Shown here piece after piece: positions 285-31,025 of a DNA stretch of 38,975 nucleotides. Positions within the stretch are counted from its first letter, which is position 1. Each line of letters starts with the position of its first letter. A model generated the notes under the pieces. That model saw only the letters and a list, made by a program, of their open reading frames with translations, did not search any database and was not told the origin of the DNA. The position numbers were made by a program, and so were the translations under genes. This DNA comes from a virus (taxonomy: Duplodnaviria; Caudoviricetes): the IMG/VR virus record IMGVR_UViG_3300005804_000002, positions 1-38,975 of that record; one strand, 5' to 3'.

Positions 285-1526
285 TTACTTTACCACTTGC
301 AAGTGATTCTCTTGATTTTCCTCTTTTGGTTTTTCTCCTTGGAATAGGAAATCCAATTTTGTTGCCACATCGTTCTTAGCACCCTTTATAAGATGCCCAT
401 AGATACGAAGAGTAGTGCTGACATCGGAATGGCCTACAAGCTCCTGTACGAGCCGTATAGGGACATTCTGAGCCAATAGGTGAGATACATAGTTGTGTCG
501 TAGTTGGTGGAATGTAATATCGCCAATTTTGGCCTTCTTAACCCACCGCTTGAAGATCAGGTCAAATCGTCTGTGTTTTATTGGGCGACCGTCCAAGTAG
601 CAGAACACGAGATTATTTTCATCGTACTTTTGACCGTCTGCCTCGATTTTCTCTCTTTCCTCGATCTGGCGTTTGCGATGCTCTTTAAGTTCACGCACAA
701 TCAGATCGGAAATAGGTACGGTTCTATAGCCAGACAAGGACTTAACCTCACTCTTAAGGTGTTTGCCAGTAGCAGTCCTTACACGACTCTCTGCAATGGT
801 TATATAGCCTTCACCTTCCTTGAGGCCTACATTGCTCCATTTTAGCCCTAAAAGCTCACTGCGCCTTGAGCCAGAGCCAAGTGCGACAGGGATTATTGCT
901 CTTAGCCTGTGGGTTGCAGCAGCGTTTTGCAATTGCTCAACTTGAGCAGGGGAGAGGACTTCGATTGTTGTTTTTGGGGGTCTTTGGATGCTTACCTCGT
1001 CCAAAGGGTTAATCGTTATAAGACCCTCTTTTAATGCTTGATTTAAGGCGCAATTCAGTGTCTTAAATATGTCTTTGACCGTAGCAGGAGATAAGCCCTC
1101 ATGCTCACGGTCTTTTCTTTTGTCTTTTCTTGCTCCCGGCTCATAGCATGAGTTAATAAACTTCTGGCATAGATCGGTGGTTAAATCTTTTAGCTTAACC
1201 TTTCCGATAGCTGGAATAATATTAACCCTAGATTTAATCTCGTAATTATCCCATGTGTTTTCACGAATAGCGTTCTTCTTGCGGTGATGCAGCCAGGTAC
1301 TCAGCCATGACTCAATCGTATGATCCTGCGCCAAGACATCAAGCCCTTTGGCCTCTTTGCGTCTGATCTCTCGAATCTCGTCAATTAGACTATCCTCGCT
1401 ATCGTTACGCATGGTAACTCTCTTGTACTCACCATCAACATAAACCCCTACAGATGCCTCATATTTTCTCCTTTTCTCGTTCCATCTGATCTTTGGCATA
1501 CTGGCAATATCTCGCCCAACAGCCAT
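285..1526 (-). CDS. int: Tyrosine integrase
   Basis: R (GSRRSEL), HQLRH, LVGH and Y (LRIYGH) catalytic motifs; RBS AAGGAGGAG before ATG at 1526. Confidence 0.96.
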   Translation of the reverse strand: MAVGRDIASMPKIRWNEKRRKYEASVGVYVDGEYKRVTMRNDSEDSLIDEIREIRRKEAKGLDVLAQDHTIESWLSTWLHHRKKNAIRENTWDNYEIKSRVNIIPAIGKVKLKDLTTDLCQKFINSCYEPGARKDKRKDREHEGLSPATVKDIFKTLNCALNQALKEGLITINPLDEVSIQRPPKTTIEVLSPAQVEQLQNAAATHRLRAIIPVALGSGSRRSELLGLKWSNVGLKEGEGYITIAESRVRTATGKHLKSEVKSLSGYRTVPISDLIVRELKEHRKRQIEEREKIEADGQKYDENNLVFCYLDGRPIKHRRFDLIFKRWVKKAKIGDITFHQLRHNYVSHLLAQNVPIRLVQELVGHSDVSTTLRIYGHLIKGAKNDVATKLDFLFQGEKPKEENQENHLQVVK

Positions 1527-1674
1527 AAAATCTCCTCCTTGTCTTATTGGATATAAGGATATTTTACAGATAATTATCACCTTAGTCAATATTAAGCATC
1601 GAAAAGGCGATAAATATCATTAAAATAGGTACAAAAATATTCCACCAAAATAAAAGTGAAATATTTTCGTCATT

Positions 1675-7595: not shown

Positions 7596-8321
7596 ATGCT
7601 TATGAGCAAAGAAGTAATGAAAGTGTTTGAGTATACAGGCAAGGAGGTGAGAACGGTCATTATTGATAATGAGCCTTGGTTTGTAGCGAAGGATGTGTGC
7701 GATATCTTGGAGCTGAAAAATAGTCGCAAAGCAGTAGGTGATCTTGATGAGGACGAAAGAGCAAGTGTAACTATTAGTGACACTTCCCTATCTACTAGGG
7801 AAACAATCACAGTTCAAGCCATTAATGAACCTGGCCTTTATTCCTTGGTTCTAAAGTCTCGCAAGCCGGAGGCCAAGCTGTTCAAGCGATGGATCACACA
7901 CGAAGTCATTCCGTCGATCCGTAAGCATGGTGCTTACATGACACCAGAAACCATTGAAAAGGTGCTATTAAACCCAGACACGATCATTAACCTAGCCACT
8001 GCGCTGAAACGAGAGCAGGAGGCCAGAGTGGAGGCCGAGAGGGTTAACAACTTACTGATGCACACCAAGAAGGTATACACATCAACCGAAATCGCAAAAG
8101 AGCTTGGGTATGCTTCACCACAGTCGCTTCATAGAGATTTGGCTAGAAGAGAAATTATCTATCGTGTGAACGGAACTTGGGTGCTGTATGCTAAATACGC
8201 TGATCTTGGCTACATGGAAACCAAGCAGCAAGTGTCACCAAGTGGTCATGTATTCTATGCGTCATTCTGGACGCAAGAAGGAAGAAAATTCTTGTTAGAA
8301 ATGCTTGCAAAAACTGCGTAA
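7596..8321 (+). CDS. BRO-N/KilAC-type antirepressor
   Basis: EPWFVAKDVCDIL...INEPGLYSLVLKSRKPEAKLFKRWITHEVIPSIRKHGAY; C-terminal WTQEGRKFL. Confidence 0.92.
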   Translation: MLMSKEVMKVFEYTGKEVRTVIIDNEPWFVAKDVCDILELKNSRKAVGDLDEDERASVTISDTSLSTRETITVQAINEPGLYSLVLKSRKPEAKLFKRWITHEVIPSIRKHGAYMTPETIEKVLLNPDTIINLATALKREQEARVEAERVNNLLMHTKKVYTSTEIAKELGYASPQSLHRDLARREIIYRVNGTWVLYAKYADLGYMETKQQVSPSGHVFYASFWTQEGRKFLLEMLAKTA

Positions 8322-20583: not shown

Positions 20584-21063
20584 TTATTGGGTTGTGGCCT
20601 TATTGTAGAAGTCTATCAGCCATTCACGCCCCTTGGCAGTCCATTTGATAGTTATGCCGAGTTCGCTTGCAACAATATAAACATAGCCATCGTTTTCAAG
20701 ATGCTTGTATTCAGTGCAAAGCTCATAGAATGCTAGTGGCTTTTCAATGACACCATGCTCAACAAGGAATTTGTTTAGCTTTACAGCGGTAGTGCCAAGC
20801 TCCTTGGCAATAGCTGTTGTTGTTACCAGCTCGCTAAAGTTGATCGAAGGCCTTGCCTTTGGCATTTCCTTTTTCTTTTTGTTTTCCTCGATCATGGCTT
20901 GAATTTTGGCCTTTTCCTCTTTGGTTAAGATATTGTAGCACTCTTCGCCATAATATTCGCTGCCATACCCTATGGCATTTTCAAGGTAGACCTTCTTTTT
21001 GCATCTGGCGCACACTACAACAGGCCGGACGCTTGAATGGTACTTCTTTTTCTTTCTTTGCAT
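20584..21063 (-). CDS. KilAC/ANT-like antirepressor domain protein with N-terminal CxxC
   Basis: TTTAIAKELGTTAVKLNKFLVEHGV...KWTAKGREWL; RBS AGGAGGT. Confidence 0.75.
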   Translation of the reverse strand: MQRKKKKYHSSVRPVVVCARCKKKVYLENAIGYGSEYYGEECYNILTKEEKAKIQAMIEENKKKKEMPKARPSINFSELVTTTAIAKELGTTAVKLNKFLVEHGVIEKPLAFYELCTEYKHLENDGYVYIVASELGITIKWTAKGREWLIDFYNKATTQ

Positions 21064-21067
21064 TTTA

Positions 21068-21898
21068 CTACCTCCTAGCGAATGCATTTTTAACATCGTC
21101 TTTTCTTGCATCTGTAATATGAGTGTACCTCTGAGTGGTAGTGATGCTCTTATGACCCAAGAAATGCTGGATCACTCGAAGATCAATGCCATTCTCAAGC
21201 AAATAGGTTGCCGATCCATGACGGAATGCATGGCAGTTCAGATCGAATCCGGCCTTCTGTGAATGCTTAGTGACTTGCCGTTGAACAACATTTTGACTGA
21301 TTCTACCATGAGCAGTATTAAACATTGCCTCGGAAGTATCCTCTCGGTCATGCTCAATGTATTTTTTTAGCAGTGCCACAGTGCGATCCTCTAGGCGCAC
21401 AATCCGTTCCTTTTTGTTTTTTGGGTCACGGACAATTATTTCTCCATTGGCAGCATTAAAGTCGGCCAGATCAAGGCCAACTGCCTCAGATACCCGAAGG
21501 CCACCAAAGAAGAGTAGGGAGATAATGGATTTGTATTTTAAGTCCTTGCATTTCTCAATTACAGCATCAACTTGATCTCTAGTGGCTATGGTTGGGATTT
21601 TGTCTTGTTGCTCGACAGACGAGATAATTGCTTGCAGTTCCTTGTAGCCGGGAATCTCGATTTCCTTAATGGTAATGAAGTTAAGGAATTGATTGAGAGT
21701 ACGCAGCCGAGCGTAGATTGTGTTTATAGAAGTCCCGGCCTTGCGCCATTCGCCGATCTTGCGATCTACATATGCCGGGGTCAAGTCCAAGTGCTGATTG
21801 GGAAACCAATACTTCATGTGGTAGCAGTATGTATTGTAAGTGTTTTCTGCTTTAGTGTTTTCAGTGCGTTGAAGAAATTCCTTGATAAGCTTATCCAT
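21068..21898 (-). CDS. XerC/D-like tyrosine recombinase
   Basis: GLRVSE, HAFRH, LGHKSITTTQRYTH. Confidence 0.92.
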   Translation of the reverse strand: MDKLIKEFLQRTENTKAENTYNTYCYHMKYWFPNQHLDLTPAYVDRKIGEWRKAGTSINTIYARLRTLNQFLNFITIKEIEIPGYKELQAIISSVEQQDKIPTIATRDQVDAVIEKCKDLKYKSIISLLFFGGLRVSEAVGLDLADFNAANGEIIVRDPKNKKERIVRLEDRTVALLKKYIEHDREDTSEAMFNTAHGRISQNVVQRQVTKHSQKAGFDLNCHAFRHGSATYLLENGIDLRVIQHFLGHKSITTTQRYTHITDARKDDVKNAFARR

Positions 21899-21929
21899 CT
21901 ACAATACCTCCAAGTGATTTATTGATTAT

Positions 21930-21958
21930 ATTATATCACTTATAGGTATATAATGCAA
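21930..21958 (-). promoter_or_regulatory. Sigma-A promoter for Xer-like gene
   Basis: TTGCAT-17-TATAAT with TGn on minus strand. Confidence 0.7.
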
Positions 21959-21986
21959 TAACAATATTAACTAATGCATATAAAAC

Positions 21987-22012
21987 GCCCAAGCTTGCAA
22001 GAGCCTGGGCGC
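21987..22012 (-). terminator. Terminator ending the leftward accessory block
   Basis: GCCCAGGCT...AGCTTGGGC stem followed by TTTT on minus strand. Confidence 0.7.
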
Positions 22013-22482: not shown

Positions 22483-22941
22483 TCAGCTAGCCCTCCTTAC
22501 AATATAGTCCACAGTGAATGTATCCTTCAGATACGCCTTTTTCTCTTCACCACAGTAGAAGAACTCCACGCCAAGATAATTGAATGAGGATTTTATGATC
22601 TTGCGTCCAGACCTCCAATAGGCAATAGAGCTATTTCCAGTAAGTTTATAGTGAAGTCGTGAAAAATCACGCAGTGAGCGAATCCCACAGATGTATGTTG
22701 TCATTATATGGCAAAGACCTGCAAGGCCATAACCTTCATATCTAGTATTTACCCCATGCGCCTTTAACTGGTCAATAGCCTCACGGATGCGATTATAATT
22801 GCGCTCGTTTTCGCTCATAGTCCCAAGTTGAAAACCAAGAAAACCGTTGGCCTCTTCCTTAACGCATACAAATTCAGCCATCAATATACCTCCGAACATG
22901 GTTTCTACAGTTATTATATACCCTAGAGTTATATTATTCAA
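22483..22941 (-). CDS. Hypothetical protein
   Basis: TTGA overlap with upstream gene. Confidence 0.55.
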   Translation of the reverse strand: MNNITLGYIITVETMFGGILMAEFVCVKEEANGFLGFQLGTMSENERNYNRIREAIDQLKAHGVNTRYEGYGLAGLCHIMTTYICGIRSLRDFSRLHYKLTGNSSIAYWRSGRKIIKSSFNYLGVEFFYCGEEKKAYLKDTFTVDYIVRRAS

Positions 22942-23405
22942 GAGATTCTTGGCTCTAGGCCATATGATTTAAGTAGGGAATCCCAGTATTTTGGATTGCC
23001 GATCCTCTTGCGATCAATGTGGCACAGGGCTGCAGTCCATGACTCAGAGCGCCACTGCGAATCGCTTATATCAAAGCCCATGTAGTCAGCACCAACCATC
23101 ATCCATTTATGGTGCAGGATTTGCGTACCCTTCACGATCTTTATGCTGCCATCTTGGCGAACATTTATATAGCGAGTCGGCAGCGGTTCTTGCGATATGT
23201 CGAAGTCGGGGCATTCGATGAAGGCAACATTGCCAGTTTTAGTATTGTACCGCACAAGGTTTGCTTGGCTTAGATCGTGTCCGGCATTTGTAGCTATGGC
23301 CTTGGCCTCAAGTATTCTCTCCAGTCCTTCAGAGGGCAGTGTTTGAATGTAGCTCATATGAATATAGACTTGCCCATGAATGTGTTTCCCGATCTTGTTT
23401 ATCAT
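22938..23405 (-). CDS. Protein resembling the non-catalytic domain of the DNA phosphorothioation-associated putative methyltransferase
   Basis: GK....VYIHxS...NLVRY....VAF..CPDFD...EP......QILHHK.MMV..DY pattern, recalled from the TIGR04096 family. Confidence 0.6.
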   Translation of the reverse strand: MINKIGKHIHGQVYIHMSYIQTLPSEGLERILEAKAIATNAGHDLSQANLVRYNTKTGNVAFIECPDFDISQEPLPTRYINVRQDGSIKIVKGTQILHHKWMMVGADYMGFDISDSQWRSESWTAALCHIDRKRIGNPKYWDSLLKSYGLEPRIS

Positions 23406-23424
23406 GTTTGTACCTCCATGTCAT

Positions 23425-23491
23425 TTGGTCTGCCATCGTCAGAGCAGGGGAAACCAACCACCTGCTGACCGGGGATCATCCCGGTTTCGGC
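23425..23491 (-). ncRNA. Type II hammerhead ribozyme HH1
   Basis: gcc-GAAAC-stemIII-GUC-agcagg/ccugcu-CUGACGA-uggc on minus strand. Confidence 0.88.
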
Positions 23492-23706
23492 TAATTGGCT
23501 GCAGCAGCATTCCAGGCTTTGAGTGCAGCCCTCTTTGTGTCCTCCATTACGCAAGAGCTATCTAGCAGATCGGCAAAGTCGCAGGTATCAGGATCAGGAT
23601 GCTCGTACTGGTACTGATCCCTTTCATAGCCTTCAAACCTATAAAATGTCTTCAGTACTGGCAACTGACCGCAATATGGGCAGGGGAGGGTCTTAAACCT
23701 TGGCAT
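23491..23706 (-). CDS. Lar-family restriction alleviation-like protein
   Basis: LPCPYCG...TKRAALKAWN. Confidence 0.65.
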   Translation of the reverse strand: MPRFKTLPCPYCGQLPVLKTFYRFEGYERDQYQYEHPDPDTCDFADLLDSSCVMEDTKRAALKAWNAAAAN

Positions 23707-23926
23707 TTTCAACACCCCTTTCATATCCCAACATATAAGCAAAGCGCAGGGCGTTTAAGACAGGGCTTCTAGCTTCACCGCTAATGCCACCCTGCATGAT
23801 CGTTTCAAGAATGGCGAAGTTAATATCAGAGTCAGGGGAGAGGCCATGATGGTCTTCCATGCTTTTAATTGAGTTCTTAAAGGCAGGATTGTGCTTTTTC
23901 AAGAATGCAAGATCAATGTTTTTCAT
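23693..23926 (-). CDS. Hypothetical protein
   Basis: RBS GGAGGA; AYMLGYERG C-terminus. Confidence 0.65.
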   Translation of the reverse strand: MKNIDLAFLKKHNPAFKNSIKSMEDHHGLSPDSDINFAILETIMQGGISGEARSPVLNALRFAYMLGYERGVENAKV

Positions 23927-24030
23927 TGTTTAAGTCCTCCATTTTGTGAGTTTTTATGGGGTTTTTGCAGGTTACCTCGGTGTTTTCCCGGTGTTTTTGG
24001 GGTTTTATATGGGTTTATGGGGGGTTTCGA

Positions 24031-24873
24031 TTATGCGCCCTTCAGCGCAGCCATTTTTTCAGACAGCAGCCACAGGGCTTTGTTAAGCTTCACATTATTA
24101 TCAATACTGGTTATTTCTCTTGTCCTAGTGCGCTTGCCGTTGGCTGTTCTTCCATGCAGACCACCACGAATGACATTTTCTTGCACTCTGTTAAATACTG
24201 ACCACAGATCAGTGCTGCGATCTTCACGCCTCCTGCTAGTTAGTAGTTGATGGGCTGAAATAGGCGCATCGTCGGGGTTGTCATACTTAATGCTTAATGC
24301 TGCCTCGGCAAAAATGCGACTCTCAGGAAGCGAAAGGGTTGTGTCCTTCATAATCTGAATGGATTCTTGCACAGGTTCGGCGTTTTCAACGATTGTATAG
24401 GCTGCGTCGATCACATTATGGACAATATTGCCACGGTGTGGCACTTTCACATCTTCGTAGGTGTCGCCTGTAACCATCCCATTTTGGCAAACAAAGCGGA
24501 ATACACCTGCCATCATTTGATAGCTGCTTGTGCCATCATGTGAGTTAATGAGGATAATTTCAAAAGCTTCTTGGGCGGTTATTTGGCCTTCACGGCGTAG
24601 GCGCAGCATATGCTTGGTAAACTCGGATTTGCCTTCAATGCGTGACTTGCTTTGTACTGCCATAAACGGCTGAAACCCTTCACGGCGTAGGCCGTTTAAT
24701 ACTTCAATGGTTGGAATGTAGGTGTATCTTTCAGATCGTGACTCATGCGCCCCAATGGCAAAGATACTAGGGGCTGTTCTGAAAATTTCCTCGTCGGTCA
24801 GCGGTCTTTCAGCACGAATGTTAAAAGAATTTCTCCCAAAAGTAGTTGCTAAAGCCATTTTCAATTCCTCCAA
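24031..24873 (-). CDS. DUF932 family protein
   Basis: APSIFA..AHESRSERYTYIPT...FTKHMLRLRR..EIILINSHDGTSSYQM.AGVFRFVCQNG. Confidence 0.92.
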   Translation of the reverse strand: MEELKMALATTFGRNSFNIRAERPLTDEEIFRTAPSIFAIGAHESRSERYTYIPTIEVLNGLRREGFQPFMAVQSKSRIEGKSEFTKHMLRLRREGQITAQEAFEIILINSHDGTSSYQMMAGVFRFVCQNGMVTGDTYEDVKVPHRGNIVHNVIDAAYTIVENAEPVQESIQIMKDTTLSLPESRIFAEAALSIKYDNPDDAPISAHQLLTSRRREDRSTDLWSVFNRVQENVIRGGLHGRTANGKRTRTREITSIDNNVKLNKALWLLSEKMAALKGA

Positions 24874-24903
24874 TATTTGTGAATTATTTTAGAATGGTTT
24901 TAC

Positions 24904-25149
24904 TTACTTCAAGCTGTTAAGCTGCCGAAAGAATTTGTCTTGCATATTGCAATGGTATTCCCATTTTTTGGTGCATTTATCGTCGTCGTTGTAAACTGAT
25001 CCGACTTTATTATCCCAATGATCTGCCATAAGGGAATGATGTTCTACCATTTTTTGCAAGTATTCAGCTTGCTTTTCTGGATCGGCCTTCATGGCCTCGG
25101 CTTGATCTTTCGCAGCCTTGGCAAGTTGCAACAGGCTTTTTTCACGCAT
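24904..25149 (-). CDS. Hypothetical protein
   Basis: RBS GGAGGT; TAATG coupling. Confidence 0.6.
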   Translation of the reverse strand: MREKSLLQLAKAAKDQAEAMKADPEKQAEYLQKMVEHHSLMADHWDNKVGSVYNDDDKCTKKWEYHCNMQDKFFRQLNSLK

Positions 25150-25256
25150 TACCAATGACCTCCATTTTTAAAGTAGCGATCCCAGGCTGCTTTTCTCCGT
25201 CTTTCACGGCGCACCGCTTGAATATAGTTAATTACCTTTAGAATTGCATTAGCCAT
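25149..25256 (-). CDS. Micro-protein (35 aa, basic)
   Basis: RBS GGAGG; MANAILKVINYIQAVRRERRRK. Confidence 0.55.
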   Translation of the reverse strand: MANAILKVINYIQAVRRERRRKAAWDRYFKNGGHW

Positions 25257-25347
25257 TTTTCTTCGCCTCCGTTGCTTTTTTCTTGAGTGCTAAAACAGTT
25301 AAGAGAGCAAGTTGCTCACGCAGGGGCATTTTTCGATTTTTACGCAT
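25249..25347 (-). CDS. Micro-protein (32 aa)
   Basis: Overlaps both neighbours; MRKNRKMPLREQLALL. Confidence 0.45.
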   Translation of the reverse strand: MRKNRKMPLREQLALLTVLALKKKATEAKKNG

Positions 25348-25441
25348 GAAATCCACCGTCCTTTTCAGATTTATAAACTGTGTAGGCCATAAGGCAAAAC
25401 ATTGACCAAATACCAAATACACCTAAAATCCAATCTTCCAT
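25340..25441 (-). CDS. Hydrophobic micro-protein (33 aa)
   Basis: RBS AGGAGG; MEDWILGVFGIWSMFCLMAY. Confidence 0.55.
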   Translation of the reverse strand: MEDWILGVFGIWSMFCLMAYTVYKSEKDGGFHA

Positions 25442-25545
25442 GAGTGCCAGCCTCCTAAAAATTGATCTTCAGAGCTTATTTTGTGGGCGTTTATCGTCCA
25501 CCCCTAGAAGGCCTGTGTAAGTCACAGACCCTCTAGGCGTAGGCC

Positions 25546-26091
25546 TTAAACGGCCTTTGCAAGCTTGCAGCATTTCGGCAGCTTGGCAATGATTACGCCA
25601 TTTTTAACGGCTACAGAATCAAAGTGCTTGGCGATTTCAAGCAGGTAGCTTTTCGTTGTCCTGTTTTCCTGCCATCCCTTGGATGTCTCGCAGCCATTGC
25701 CGGACTTATTACCTTCATAGATCGTGAAATAGGCGACCCCATCGGGCTTTATGGCTTGTGACACGGTGAAAATAACTTGTTCTCTGGCCTCGGCCTCGGC
25801 GATCACATTTAAAACATTGCTACAGGTGGCAGTGTCGGCAGGGGTTGCCTTAAGCCTTGTGGTTACCTGCTCGTTATGGCTTTGCGTCCTGTTGTAGGGA
25901 TCGAAAATCAGGTTTTCAACGCCTACAGAGGCGAGAAAGGCCGTTGCGTTATCGAATTTACCGCCTCCAATATCGGCATTTACTGTTCCCGGCCTCCATG
26001 CGACTTTAGAGAACACCGCAGGGAGCTTGTGGGAATTAATGGATGTTTCAGCAGAATCAAATTTTTGTGCTACAGTCTTGAAAGCTTGCAT
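25546..26091 (-). CDS. Small class I SAM-dependent methyltransferase
   Basis: ADIGGG motif I, FDPY, ADTATCSNVLNVI, KPDGVAYFTIY. Confidence 0.85.
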   Translation of the reverse strand: MQAFKTVAQKFDSAETSINSHKLPAVFSKVAWRPGTVNADIGGGKFDNATAFLASVGVENLIFDPYNRTQSHNEQVTTRLKATPADTATCSNVLNVIAEAEAREQVIFTVSQAIKPDGVAYFTIYEGNKSGNGCETSKGWQENRTTKSYLLEIAKHFDSVAVKNGVIIAKLPKCCKLAKAV

Positions 26092-26152
26092 ATAAATTCC
26101 CTCCGTAAATACAATTCATATATTGTGCATAAAACTGGGTATAGCAAAGCAG

Positions 26153-26228
26153 GGCTTGCCATCATCAGGCCACAAGTTGCCATCTTGCGACGATACCGGG
26201 AGGCCATGAGGCCTCGCAGTATTTCGGC
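26153..26228 (-). ncRNA. Type II hammerhead ribozyme HH2
   Basis: gcc-GAAAU-stemIII-AUC-gucgcaag/cuuguggc-CUGAUGA-uggc. Confidence 0.85.
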
Positions 26229-26234
26229 TAATTT

Positions 26235-26414
26235 TTAGTCTTCGACTTGGATTTCCCATGTCCAACGGCTTAATGATACAGAATACCCTTTGCATTCCAT
26301 CATGTCTTTAAAGGCCTCGGCTTGCTGCTTGTCATCAAAAAAGGAATGATTGATTTTATTACCTACAGCAGCCCCTTCAACGGTGGTTACTCGATACATT
26401 AGACGCTTGCTCAT
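26235..26414 (-). CDS. Hypothetical protein (59 aa)
   Basis: RBS AAGGAGG; MSKRLMYRVTTVEG. Confidence 0.6.
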   Translation of the reverse strand: MSKRLMYRVTTVEGAAVGNKINHSFFDDKQQAEAFKDMMECKGYSVSLSRWTWEIQVED

Positions 26415-26454: not shown

Positions 26455-26727
26455 TTATATTTCATCTAAATTGATCGGCTCAACATAATTGCCCATATTA
26501 TCCCAATAACCTATGAGCAAAATATCAATTTCAAGATCGATCAAAGAGGGGATGCCATAGGCCTTTTTATAGCCTTCAACATCAAAGCGAATAGGCCAAT
26601 CTTCAAAACCGTCCCGGCATTCATCGCAATTGCAATCATGCCCGTAAATCTGCAATGCTTCGCCTGTGGTGGCATTTACATCAATAGCCCCATGCGATCC
26701 GCTAACGGTGAAAATATCCATCTTCAA
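26455..26727 (-). CDS. Acidic hypothetical protein
   Basis: RBS AGGAGG with TTG start; CNCDEC. Confidence 0.65.
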   Translation of the reverse strand: MKMDIFTVSGSHGAIDVNATTGEALQIYGHDCNCDECRDGFEDWPIRFDVEGYKKAYGIPSLIDLEIDILLIGYWDNMGNYVEPINLDEI

Positions 26728-26746
26728 AGCCTCCTGCTGTTTATAT

Positions 26747-26818
26747 TGGCTTGTCTCATCAGGCCGGGGGTTGCCATCCCATCGGCGACCGTCGCCCCTT
26801 TAGGGGCTAGGTTTCGAC
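26747..26818 (-). ncRNA. Type II hammerhead ribozyme HH3
   Basis: guc-GAAAC-stemIII-GUC-gccg/cggc-CUGAUGA-gac. Confidence 0.9.
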
Positions 26819-26851
26819 TTATCACGCATATTTTAATGCATAGCGTACATA

Positions 26852-27433: not shown

Positions 27434-27481
27434 TTTGATCAATTCCTTTCGTTTTGTTTTGTTTTCTTTTCTACTATATAT

Positions 27482-27508
27482 ATTCGCCGTTAAGTTATAA
27501 ATTCCTTC
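27482..27508 (-). promoter_or_regulatory. Sigma-H-type promoter
   Basis: GAAGGAATT-N11-GGCGAAT matches RNAGGAWWW-N11/12-RNNGAAT. Confidence 0.6.
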
Positions 27509-28611
27509 TTAAAAATACCCGAAAGTGATATTTTTTTAAAAAAATGTTTATGCAAAAAGGCTGATAAAATATTCGTATTATGCATAAAGGGCGATAAAAG
27601 GCAAGGGCTTATAATGGGCGAATAGGCGTATAAGGCCGTAGAATGGCCTATGATTAATTATTGACGCTATGCATATTATCATATTCGACAGGATTTATAC
27701 AGGCCTTAAAAAGGCCGGAATGATTGGAATAGATGGTAAAGAATGGTATGGTGGGCAGCGTAGCGGATCGGCAAGGGATCGGCAGCGGGTTTGCATCTGG
27801 TAGTATAAAATAATAATAGTTATTAATAAAAGACAAAAACTCATAGCATGATTATATGAAATGAAATGTAATATAATCATATCTAGTATAACTAGATCCA
27901 ATATAATAATTATTATTAATAAATCTATATACTAAATCATAATGAGTATAGATTAATAATTGATGAATAAATGATGATAGATAAGGGATAGATAAAAGGG
28001 TTAAGTTCTCAGCCATGCTGCCTACCATATAATGGCAGCATATAGGCTGTTAGCCAGAAAGGCCTAGAAGGCCTAAAAAGCTACTGTTAAAATATGGTAC
28101 TAGCAAGCAAGACCCTGTATTCTGACAGGGTTGAAGCTTTATTGTAAATACCTGTAAAATAGCATTTAAAATGCAATAGTTTGTATAAACTAATTCATAG
28201 TTAAGGCCGGGACTGTCTAACAGACCCGGTAATTTTTCGTAGACCAATTTCCGTTTTCTGGAAGGCCGGAGGCCGGTAAGACCCTCGCTCATTTTTTCTA
28301 CCATATCACTCATTATTTCCACTAATATTATGCACATATTATTCATATTCTCATTATGTTACATGAAATGTGTTAGTCATCTAACACACAAATAAATCAT
28401 CATAAAAGCTTGAAAACCATTGAGAAGACTGAAGTCTTCATATTACCTCACTGTTGTTCTACCCCAGTGGGTAATATGCTCTAGGCCAACTCCTTTTAAT
28501 AAAAATAAATAATGGGTATATTATATTACCAGTGAGAGATGGGGCGCACTGAGCGCATAATGTCATGCTATATGTAAATATTCCATACTGCGCCTCTAGC
28601 GCACAAACAAA

Positions 28612-30813: not shown

Positions 30814-30961
30814 TGGCACTCAAAAAGGAACAAAAGTACTTCTCAATGGCACTGAAATACGGTGCTTTGGGCTTGTGTTCCGTGGTGATCGGATCAATGG
30901 ATATGAAATTACATTTGATCTGACTGAGCCAGAAGAGGGCGATGCTCAAACGGGGCGATGA
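30773..30961 (+). CDS. Hypothetical protein
   Basis: 62-aa ORF; stop codon overlaps tRNA 5' end. Confidence 0.5.
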   Translation: MARPQKTKIEIMSDGTQKGTKVLLNGTEIRCFGLVFRGDRINGYEITFDLTEPEEGDAQTGR

Positions 30962-31025
30962 TGTAATGGTAGCATAACTGACTCCAAATCAGTTTGTCTT
31001 GGTTCAATTCCAAGTCGCTTTGCCA
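30952..31025 (+). tRNA. tRNA-Trp (CCA)
   Basis: D stem ATGT/GCAT, anticodon arm ACTGA-CTCCAAA-TCAGT, T arm CTTGG-TTCAATT-CCAAG, ends G-CCA. Confidence 0.88.

What the first reader, a model, noticed from the sequence alone, without database searches (positions are those of the whole stretch)
22938..26228. Apparent split phosphorothioation-associated methyltransferase, each half behind its own ribozyme
Seen: 25546-26091 is a minimal SAM methyltransferase (TSI...DIGGG...FDPY...AD...SNVLNVI....R..V). 22938-23405 has GK/YIH/NLVRY/PDFD..EP/ILHHK/DY motifs. From memory, these match the central MTase domain and the flanking repeated domain of the single-chain dnd-associated putative methyltransferase (TIGR04096). 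Here they are separate genes ~2.1 kb apart, with no dnd cluster in the window. HH2 lies just 5' of the MTase and HH1 just 5' of the other half, so each becomes the first cistron of a cleaved mRNA. Inference: a phage two-component nucleic-acid modification or anti-restriction (possibly anti-phosphorothioate) system with ribozyme-coordinated expression. I do not know of this being described.
Basis: partly seen in the sequence, partly recalled or inferred. Interest (0 to 1): 0.85.

Follow-up and report, generated by a model that had tools for sequence, protein, structure and literature searches.

The report
Unfused phage methyltransferase pair behind ribozymes
A temperate phage encodes, as two separate genes that each sit behind a predicted self-cutting RNA, a small methyl-transfer enzyme and an unnamed partner protein that many other phages and bacteria fuse into one chain; the two are predicted to bind and likely help the phage against host defences, but their target is unknown and the self-cutting RNAs are a known, general feature of such gene cassettes.

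Summary
ORF M (25546-26091) is a class I SAM methyltransferase distantly related to the TIGR04096 methyltransferase domain. ORF D (22938-23405) is related to its C-terminal domain and has no solved-fold match. The pairing is real: 51 of 72 long D relatives carry this methyltransferase family in the same chain, in either order, often inside phage polyvalent proteins, and a complex model scores 0.67 against 0.00 for the best control. It is not a split TIGR04096: both score far below the cutoff, the family's middle ~165 residues are absent, and phosphorothioate genes lie near 18 of 34 true TIGR04096 loci but 0 of 160 viral loci. The pairing is loose: only 1 of 20 near-complete M-carrying phages without D nearby has D elsewhere. 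The ribozymes are genuine type II hammerheads, but there are three, related phages carry them in the same cassette without M or D, and none of 240 other M/D loci has one beside the gene. That layout has been published since 2011. This scan found the unfused pair before in at least five notes on other phage DNA.

The parts
22938..23405 (-). ORF D, 155 aa: partner domain of unsolved fold with invariant K7, P74, H98, K100, Y108 and near-invariant Y14, H16, E73, H99, W101, W141; related to the TIGR04096 C-terminal domain
   Evidence: phrog_16075, E 2.8e-22; pLDDT 96
23421..23495 (-). Type II hammerhead with pseudoknot; predicted GUC cleavage after position 23467, leaving a 61-nt leader to the D start codon
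   Evidence: (RF02276, 42.3 bits)
23491..23742 (-). 83-aa Zn-ribbon ORF, weakly similar to Lar restriction-alleviation proteins (below cutoff)
   Evidence: TIGR03655, E 6.5e-5, 23.2 bits against cutoff 39.6
23693..23926 (-). 77-aa ORF, no family
24031..24873 (-). DUF932 protein
   Evidence: PF06067, E 1.6e-52
24904..25422 (-). Three small ORFs (24904-25155, 25149-25256, 25249-25422); the two that were scanned have no convincing family
25440..25589 (-). Strong hairpin region at the end of M; begins with a 14-of-16 match to the 5' core of the hammerhead before M; possibly a decayed fourth ribozyme; not scored by the hammerhead model
   Evidence: z -4.95; 3 of 100 shuffles
25546..26091 (-). ORF M, 181 aa: minimal class I SAM methyltransferase with NxDxGGG, DPY and NVLNV motifs; no (D/N/S)PP(Y/F/W) motif
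   Evidence: (pLDDT 91)
26147..26232 (-). Type II hammerhead; predicted AUC cleavage after position 26192, leaving a 100-nt leader to the M start codon; pseudoknot only 3 bp
26235..26414 (-). 59-aa ORF, no convincing family
26455..26727 (-). 90-aa ORF, no family; first gene behind the third hammerhead
26742..26822 (-).
   Evidence: 23.5 bits, below the gathering score; 55 bits
26852..27442 (-). GP88-family protein, likely first gene of the operon
   Evidence: PF17338, E 9.9e-24
27473..27501 (-). Promoter-like site upstream of the operon (consensus match only; 35 such sites found against 22.7 expected)
21985..22012 (-). Intrinsic-terminator-like hairpin closing the cassette (11 pairs)

Best explanation
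M and D are the unfused forms of a widespread mix-and-match phage module, a small SAM-dependent methyltransferase plus an unnamed partner domain, which are predicted to bind each other and likely methylate an as yet unknown nucleic-acid or nucleotide target to blunt host defence, while the three hammerheads likely cut the cassette's long message into gene blocks as they do for many unrelated phage genes. Shown: the ORFs, the Rossmann fold of M (model), the repeated fusion of the two domains in both orders, their presence in phage polyvalent proteins, and the ribozyme layout. Predicted: D lies against the substrate-side loops of M (M 15-22, 125-141). Inferred: D's conserved His/Lys/Glu/Tyr cluster binds or positions the substrate; the reaction is not classical N6-adenine, N4-cytosine or C5-cytosine DNA methylation because M lacks those motifs; the pair acts early after entry or induction; cleavage gives M and D messages a 5'-OH end behind a hairpin, which would stabilise them, but that is the cassette's general habit and not a device built for this pair.
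For: Fusion: 51 of 72 D relatives of 280 aa or more carry this methyltransferase family, 48 within 100 residues, 31 D-first and 20 M-first; 14 of the 150 listed D relatives carry the window's own M subfamily at over 100 bits. Viral D loci: 42 fused, 9 separate within the locus, 29 without, of 80 (near-copies included). Both genes occur 52 kb apart in KVP40-like Vibrio phages. D-bearing giants carry LPD38, LPD3, DarA_C and ddrB-ParB, domains of polyvalent proteins that PMC5512222 reads as early-invasion effectors. Complex model: score 0.67, best of 3 controls 0.00; that mark was reached by 116 of 157 solved complexes and 2 of 215 mismatched pairs (counts hold only roughly here); runs agree in at least 94% of contacts, partner pLDDT at least 91. 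The model puts D's C-terminal part near M's N-terminal part, which fits D-first fusions with short linkers (inference). M: class I fold, best Z 13.2 (rmsd 3.3, 161 aligned), with Trm9, METTL6 and small-molecule N-methyltransferases among tied neighbours; 0 of 55 members have a (D/N/S)PP(Y/F/W) or PC(Q/E) motif. Ribozymes: covariation in all four helices; same cassette position in 7 of 22 terminase-relative loci, ahead of unrelated small genes.
Against: M often lacks D: 77 of 80 viral M loci have no D within the locus, and of 50 of these checked genome-wide only 6 have D (1 of 20 near-complete). Of 42 records in which one search found no strong M match near D, only 3 have an M match under E 1e-10 anywhere (13 at E<=0.001). 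D domains are not sorted by the subtype of their fused methyltransferase (12 changes against 12.4 shuffled, quick tree). The D residues in the predicted interface (114-129, 147-149) are mostly variable in the family, and halves of commonly fused domains tend to pass such tests. No substrate, activity, expression or anti-defence effect is shown; no PADLOC model matches; the Lar hit is below cutoff.
Confidence: 0.5

Rival explanations
1. M and D are independent cargo: M is a self-sufficient methyltransferase, D a separate enzyme, and they travel together only because both are useful early-infection effectors.
For: M without D in 44 of 50 checked records and 19 of 20 near-complete ones; 78 of 150 listed D relatives are short stand-alone proteins, and D also fuses to GNAT, NUDIX, NFACT-R, ART and Tpt1-like domains; no co-sorting on the D tree.
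Against: 48 of 72 long D relatives have the methyltransferase directly adjacent, even inside 2,000-5,700-aa chains and in both orders; complex model 0.67 against 0.00; both genes were gained by this phage while 0 of 14 terminase relatives have either.
Confidence: 0.2
2. D is not a helper but M's counterpart or substrate: M methylates D's 124-129 loop to switch it, or D is a His/Glu/Lys hydrolase acting on M's product (a writer-eraser or two-step pathway).
For: D has an enzyme-like invariant set (K7, H16, E73, H98, H99, K100, Y108); in the model D 124-129 touches invariant M residues T16, Y125, T136, Q141.
Against: The contacting D residues are not conserved, so a conserved methyl acceptor is unlikely; no enzyme fold was matched.
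Confidence: 0.15
3. One reading: a split TIGR04096 that counters host phosphorothioate (Dnd/Ssp) defence, for instance by methylating the backbone sulfur or blocking its readers.
For: Homology to both end domains of TIGR04096; true TIGR04096 genes lie near phosphorothioate genes in 18 of 34 genome loci against 2 of 37 without; in Planctomycetes a D of the window's subtype is fused to or beside TIGR04096. An anti-defence gene need not lie near its target, so the absence in phages does not exclude this.
Against: Scores far below cutoff, middle region absent; window D does not group with TIGR04096-linked D domains; 0 of 160 viral loci near phosphorothioate genes; the family is far wider than dnd clusters.
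Confidence: 0.12
4. The ribozymes are placed to give M and D matched, stable messages (pair-specific coordination).
For: Two of the three ribozymes precede M and D; chance about 0.03-0.04 for 13-15 genes, computed after the fact.
Against: Third ribozyme before an unrelated ORF; 6 of 14 relative genomes have 1-3 such ribozymes and none has M or D; 0 of 240 M or D loci has one beside the gene; 0 of 127 hammerhead loci (80 with long flanks) hold M or D.
Confidence: 0.1

Closest known systems
TIGR04096 (NCBIfam dnd_rel_methyl), DNA phosphorothioation-associated putative methyltransferase
   Same: Both end domains are homologous: M to positions about 30-153, D to about 322-475. Uncharacterised in the searches made.
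   Different: Two genes instead of one chain; no counterpart of the middle ~165 residues; scores 30.7 bits and none against cutoff 150; different methyltransferase subtype (DIGGG against DYGCG); no phosphorothioate genes nearby.
Phage polyvalent proteins (PMC5512222; passages read)
   Same: M and D occur side by side as modules of 1,000-5,700-aa phage proteins with LPD38, LPD3, DarA_C, ddrB-ParB, ART.
   Different: The methyltransferase described in those passages is the DarB-like NPP(Y/F) adenine enzyme, which M is not; here the modules are stand-alone genes of a temperate phage. The paper's supplementary domain lists were not read.
Clustered type II hammerheads flanking prophage genes (PMC3088659, PMC6765202; passages read)
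   Same: Same ribozyme class, pseudoknot and layout: several hammerheads flank single genes or blocks whose identities vary; the published case includes the anti-restriction gene ardA and is active.
   Different: Only the cargo differs; purpose is still unproven in print.
Class I methyltransferases Trm9, METTL6, Bmt2 and small-molecule N-methyltransferases
   Same: Fold (Z 11-13) and a hydrophobic motif after strand 4 instead of NPPY; Bmt2 profile hits 2 of 55 members weakly.
   Different: Identity 9-21%; many tied neighbours, so no substrate can be read from the fold.

Membership tests
TIGR04096 | Whole-protein score above the curated cutoff of 150 bits | tested here: not met
   D 30.7 bits; M no hit at E<=1; true members score 450-613
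TIGR04096 | N-terminal methyltransferase domain homologous to the family's | tested here: met
   hhalign probability 86%, E 5.1e-6, shared DP, NVLNVI..ER and G..T..G..Q motifs; distant only
TIGR04096 | C-terminal domain homologous to the family's | tested here: met
   (probability 96%)
TIGR04096 | Middle region (about positions 155-320) | tested here: not met
   Neither M nor D aligns to it; 12 other cassette ORFs scanned have no TIGR04096 hit
TIGR04096 | Location beside phosphorothioate (dnd/dpt) genes | tested here: not met
   None in the window or 160 viral loci; 18 of 34 true TIGR04096 loci have them; the window is a partial phage genome
Type II hammerhead (RF02276) | Core CUGANGA, GAAA, NUH with stems I-III | tested here: met
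   All three; only the one before D passes Rfam's gathering score
Type II hammerhead (RF02276) | Pseudoknot between loop I and the 3' tail | tested here: met
   Covarying in 38 aligned sequences, 84% of cells paired; only 3 bp in the ribozyme before M
Type II hammerhead (RF02276) | Self-cleavage | not testable with these tools
   No RNA holder listed
Class I SAM-dependent methyltransferase | Rossmann-like fold with acidic motif I (DxGxG) and acidic residue after strand 2 | tested here: met
   D40, G42, G44, D64 invariant in 55 of 55
DNA amino- or C5-methyltransferases (DarB-like, Dam-like, Dcm-like) | (D/N/S)PP(Y/F/W) or PC(Q/E) catalytic motif | tested here: not met
   0 of 55 members
DpdM (dPreQ1 methyltransferase of KVP40-like phages) | DUF3109 family with CxxxCxxCC metal motif (10.1101/2023.04.13.536721, passages) | tested here: not met
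   neither ORF has the motif or that Pfam hit
Known fold for D | Structural match to a solved protein | tested here: inconclusive
   Best Z 4.1 (rmsd 3.3, 72 aligned) among 48,161 chains; Foldseek best E 0.15; a weak match does not show a new fold

The most novel reading that the evidence does not exclude
M+D is the catalytic core of an undescribed nucleic-acid or nucleotide methylation chemistry, built on a partner domain of a new fold, that bacteria attach to phosphorothioate defence clusters and that phages inject or express early as a counter-defence, possibly acting on the phosphorothioate sulfur or another non-canonical position; this phage offers the smallest two-gene version.
Probability: 0.25. 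Interest if true: 0.8.

Novelty: new variant of a known kind. Interest (0 to 1): 0.45.

Why it matters
The methyltransferase-plus-D module is common in phages (810 clusters at 50% identity for D), sits in injected-type polyvalent proteins and beside bacterial phosphorothioate clusters, and no function turned up in the literature searches made. The window gives two small, well-modelled, stand-alone proteins (155 and 181 aa) with a predicted interface and candidate catalytic residues, which makes it a convenient test case for the whole family. The ribozyme part adds little that is new.

Tried and rejected
Word-index search for D found only itself; single-protein scans of viral contigs found no relative of D or M, so alignments were used. 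No solved-structure sequence match for D and none significant for M. No fold match for D in PDB; BFVD gave one unnamed 1,232-aa viral relative; the Atlas feature search gave nothing for D. DpdM rejected. PADLOC: no hit for 13 proteins. The Mahella-1 match at 25480-25587 (22.7 bits against gathering 70.7, E 0.49) is treated as chance. No RNA holder listed; the one DNA holder may be the source sample. The first broader-profile count dropped true fusions through an over-wide overlap filter and was redone. My pattern descriptor missed the third window hammerhead, so a covariance model was built. The M tree did not finish and the D tree is the quick one with 22 of 50 forks open. DUF932 as an anti-defence marker is not supported by my search: the term is absent from the main texts listed. 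PMC9927239 was irrelevant. Host not determined.
Full report
Setting. The window is a whole 38,975-base virus record of a temperate phage: integrase and repressor, a plus-strand replication block, then terminase, portal and connector genes. Between them lies a minus-strand accessory cassette. A likely operon runs from a GP88-family gene (27442) to a terminator-like hairpin at 22012-21985. It includes M, D, DUF932, a weak Lar-like gene and small unknown ORFs. The host was not determined.

The two proteins. D (155 aa) matches the C-terminal domain of TIGR04096 below cutoff. It has 810 relatives at E<=0.001 among 50%-identity representatives; of the best 150, 62 are 200 aa or shorter and 17 exceed 1,500 aa. 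Its model is confident (pLDDT 96) but matches no solved fold (best Z 4.1). It has an enzyme-like invariant set. M (181 aa) has 348 relatives of similar length and mostly viral look-alike clusters. It is a class I methyltransferase without the motifs of DNA amino- or C5-methyltransferases (0 of 55). True TIGR04096 members were taken from Planctomycete-rich genome loci (450-613 bits) and 20 were aligned. M aligns to their N-terminal methyltransferase (86%, E 5.1e-6) and D to their C-terminal domain (96%, E 2.3e-9). The middle of the family has no counterpart here.

Is it a pair? Fourteen of the 150 listed D relatives carry the window's own M subfamily at over 100 bits. With a profile widened by iteration, 51 of the 72 relatives of 280 aa or more carry a methyltransferase of the same NVLNV-type family: 48 within 100 residues, 31 D-first, 20 M-first. 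None of the 78 shorter ones does. Loci: viral 42 fused, 9 separate, 29 none, of 80; genomes 19, 24, 28 of 71; metagenomes 21, 14, 44 of 79, many on short contigs. These sets contain near-copies. KVP40-like Vibrio phages carry both, 52 kb apart on opposite strands in ValKK3. The complex model scored 0.67 against a best control of 0.00, a mark reached by 116 of 157 solved and 2 of 215 mismatched pairs (roughly applicable), with at least 94% contact agreement and partner pLDDT at least 91.

Against a strict pair. 77 of 80 viral M loci have no D in the locus. Of 50 of those 77 (contigs of 28 kb or more), 6 have D elsewhere, and 1 of 20 near-complete ones. Of 47 D loci without a strong nearby M match, 42 were held; 13 have an M-profile match, only 3 under E 1e-10. 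On a quick tree D domains do not sort by partner subtype, and the window's D groups with one stand-alone relative, not with TIGR04096-linked copies. The D side of the predicted interface is variable. So M commonly works without D, while D leans on a methyltransferase of this family, and partners are exchanged. This is a mix-and-match module, not a fission of TIGR04096.

Phosphorothioate link. Using seven cluster proteins from the fetched genomes as queries (five counted as core), 18 of 34 loci with a true TIGR04096 have a core gene nearby, against 2 of 37 other genome loci, 0 of 160 viral loci and none in the window. The link belongs to the bacterial family. An anti-phosphorothioate role for the phage genes is neither shown nor excluded.

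Ribozymes. There are three type II hammerheads, before D, before M and before a 90-aa unknown ORF. All four helices covary in a 38-sequence alignment. Predicted cuts leave 61-, 100- and 65-nt leaders. The subtype is common: about 1,800 stretches estimated in the viral collection, ahead of Mu-like transposases, ArdC, Ku, a C5 methylase and mostly unknown small genes. None of 127 such loci holds M or D (80 had long flanks). None of 240 M or D loci has a hammerhead beside the gene; one locus has one 8.5 kb away on the other strand. Phages with the closest terminases carry 1-3 hammerheads in the same minus-strand position (7 of 22 loci; 6 of 14 genomes held) before unrelated small genes, and 0 of 14 have M or D. 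The ribozymes therefore belong to the cassette. That two of three precede M and D has a post-hoc chance of 0.03-0.04 and is the only hint of pair-specific use.

Literature (what I saw). PMC3088659, passages: clustered hammerheads flank variable prophage genes including ardA, and tested clusters cleave. PMC6765202, passages: purpose unresolved. PMC5737381 and PMC10085705, passages: bacterial ribozymes are enriched near certain, often Mu-like phage, genes. PMC5512222 and PMC7824862, passages: polyvalent proteins and phage methylases; this module was not named in those passages. PMC10853773, passages: no mention of TIGR04096. 10.1101/2023.04.13.536721, passages: DpdM is a different protein. The family's full name occurs in one paper, seen as a listing only (PMC8416521). 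Searches found no functional study of the module; subscription papers and all supplements were not seen. That a 5'-OH end behind a hairpin stabilises bacterial mRNA, and the motif names of DNA methyltransferases beyond what state, are recalled.

Earlier scan notes report the same unfused pair in other phages and ribozyme-punctuated cassettes in others; they are unchecked and not counted as support.

Verdict. Real features, real but loose pairing, unknown substrate; the phosphorothioate and pair-specific ribozyme claims are not supported. New variant of a known kind; interest 0.45.

Noticed in passing
L187-L192 (IMGVR_UViG_3300033112_000310, contig positions 1461-13859): A 112-kb viral contig has 21 type II hammerheads in 12.4 kb, one before nearly every gene, including ArdC, DUF3085 and Ku; an extreme case of the ribozyme-punctuated cassette.
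   Followed up: partly
window 25440-25589 (-): Very stable hairpin region (z -4.95) overlapping the low-confidence tail of M, starting with a 14-of-16 copy of the upstream hammerhead's 5' core; may be a decayed fourth ribozyme, suggesting cassette exchange at ribozyme repeats.
   Followed up: partly
window 21929-21958 and 22912-22941: A 30-nt AT-rich imperfect repeat (77%) lies upstream of the second integrase and overlaps a promoter-like site at D's stop codon; possible shared operator or promoter.
   Followed up: no
window 285-1589 and 21068-21898: Two tyrosine recombinases and two antirepressor-like genes (7596-8321, 20584-21111) in one phage.
   Followed up: no
window 27450-28600: About 1.1 kb AT-rich stretch upstream of the operon with short imperfect repeats and no recognised gene.
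   Followed up: no
window 30952-31022 (+): A tRNA gene just before the terminase.
   Followed up: no
L291-L361: In Planctomycetes a D of the phage-like HHKW subtype is fused to either end of, or lies beside, a true TIGR04096 whose own C-terminal copy has lost those histidines in the consensus.
   Followed up: partly
P0139, P0147, P0172, P0201, P0221, P0227, P0247: D is also fused to GNAT, NFACT-R, ART-PolyVal, Tpt1/PARP-like, DUF5662 and NUDIX domains; M-like folds occur fused to ParB_N.
   Followed up: no
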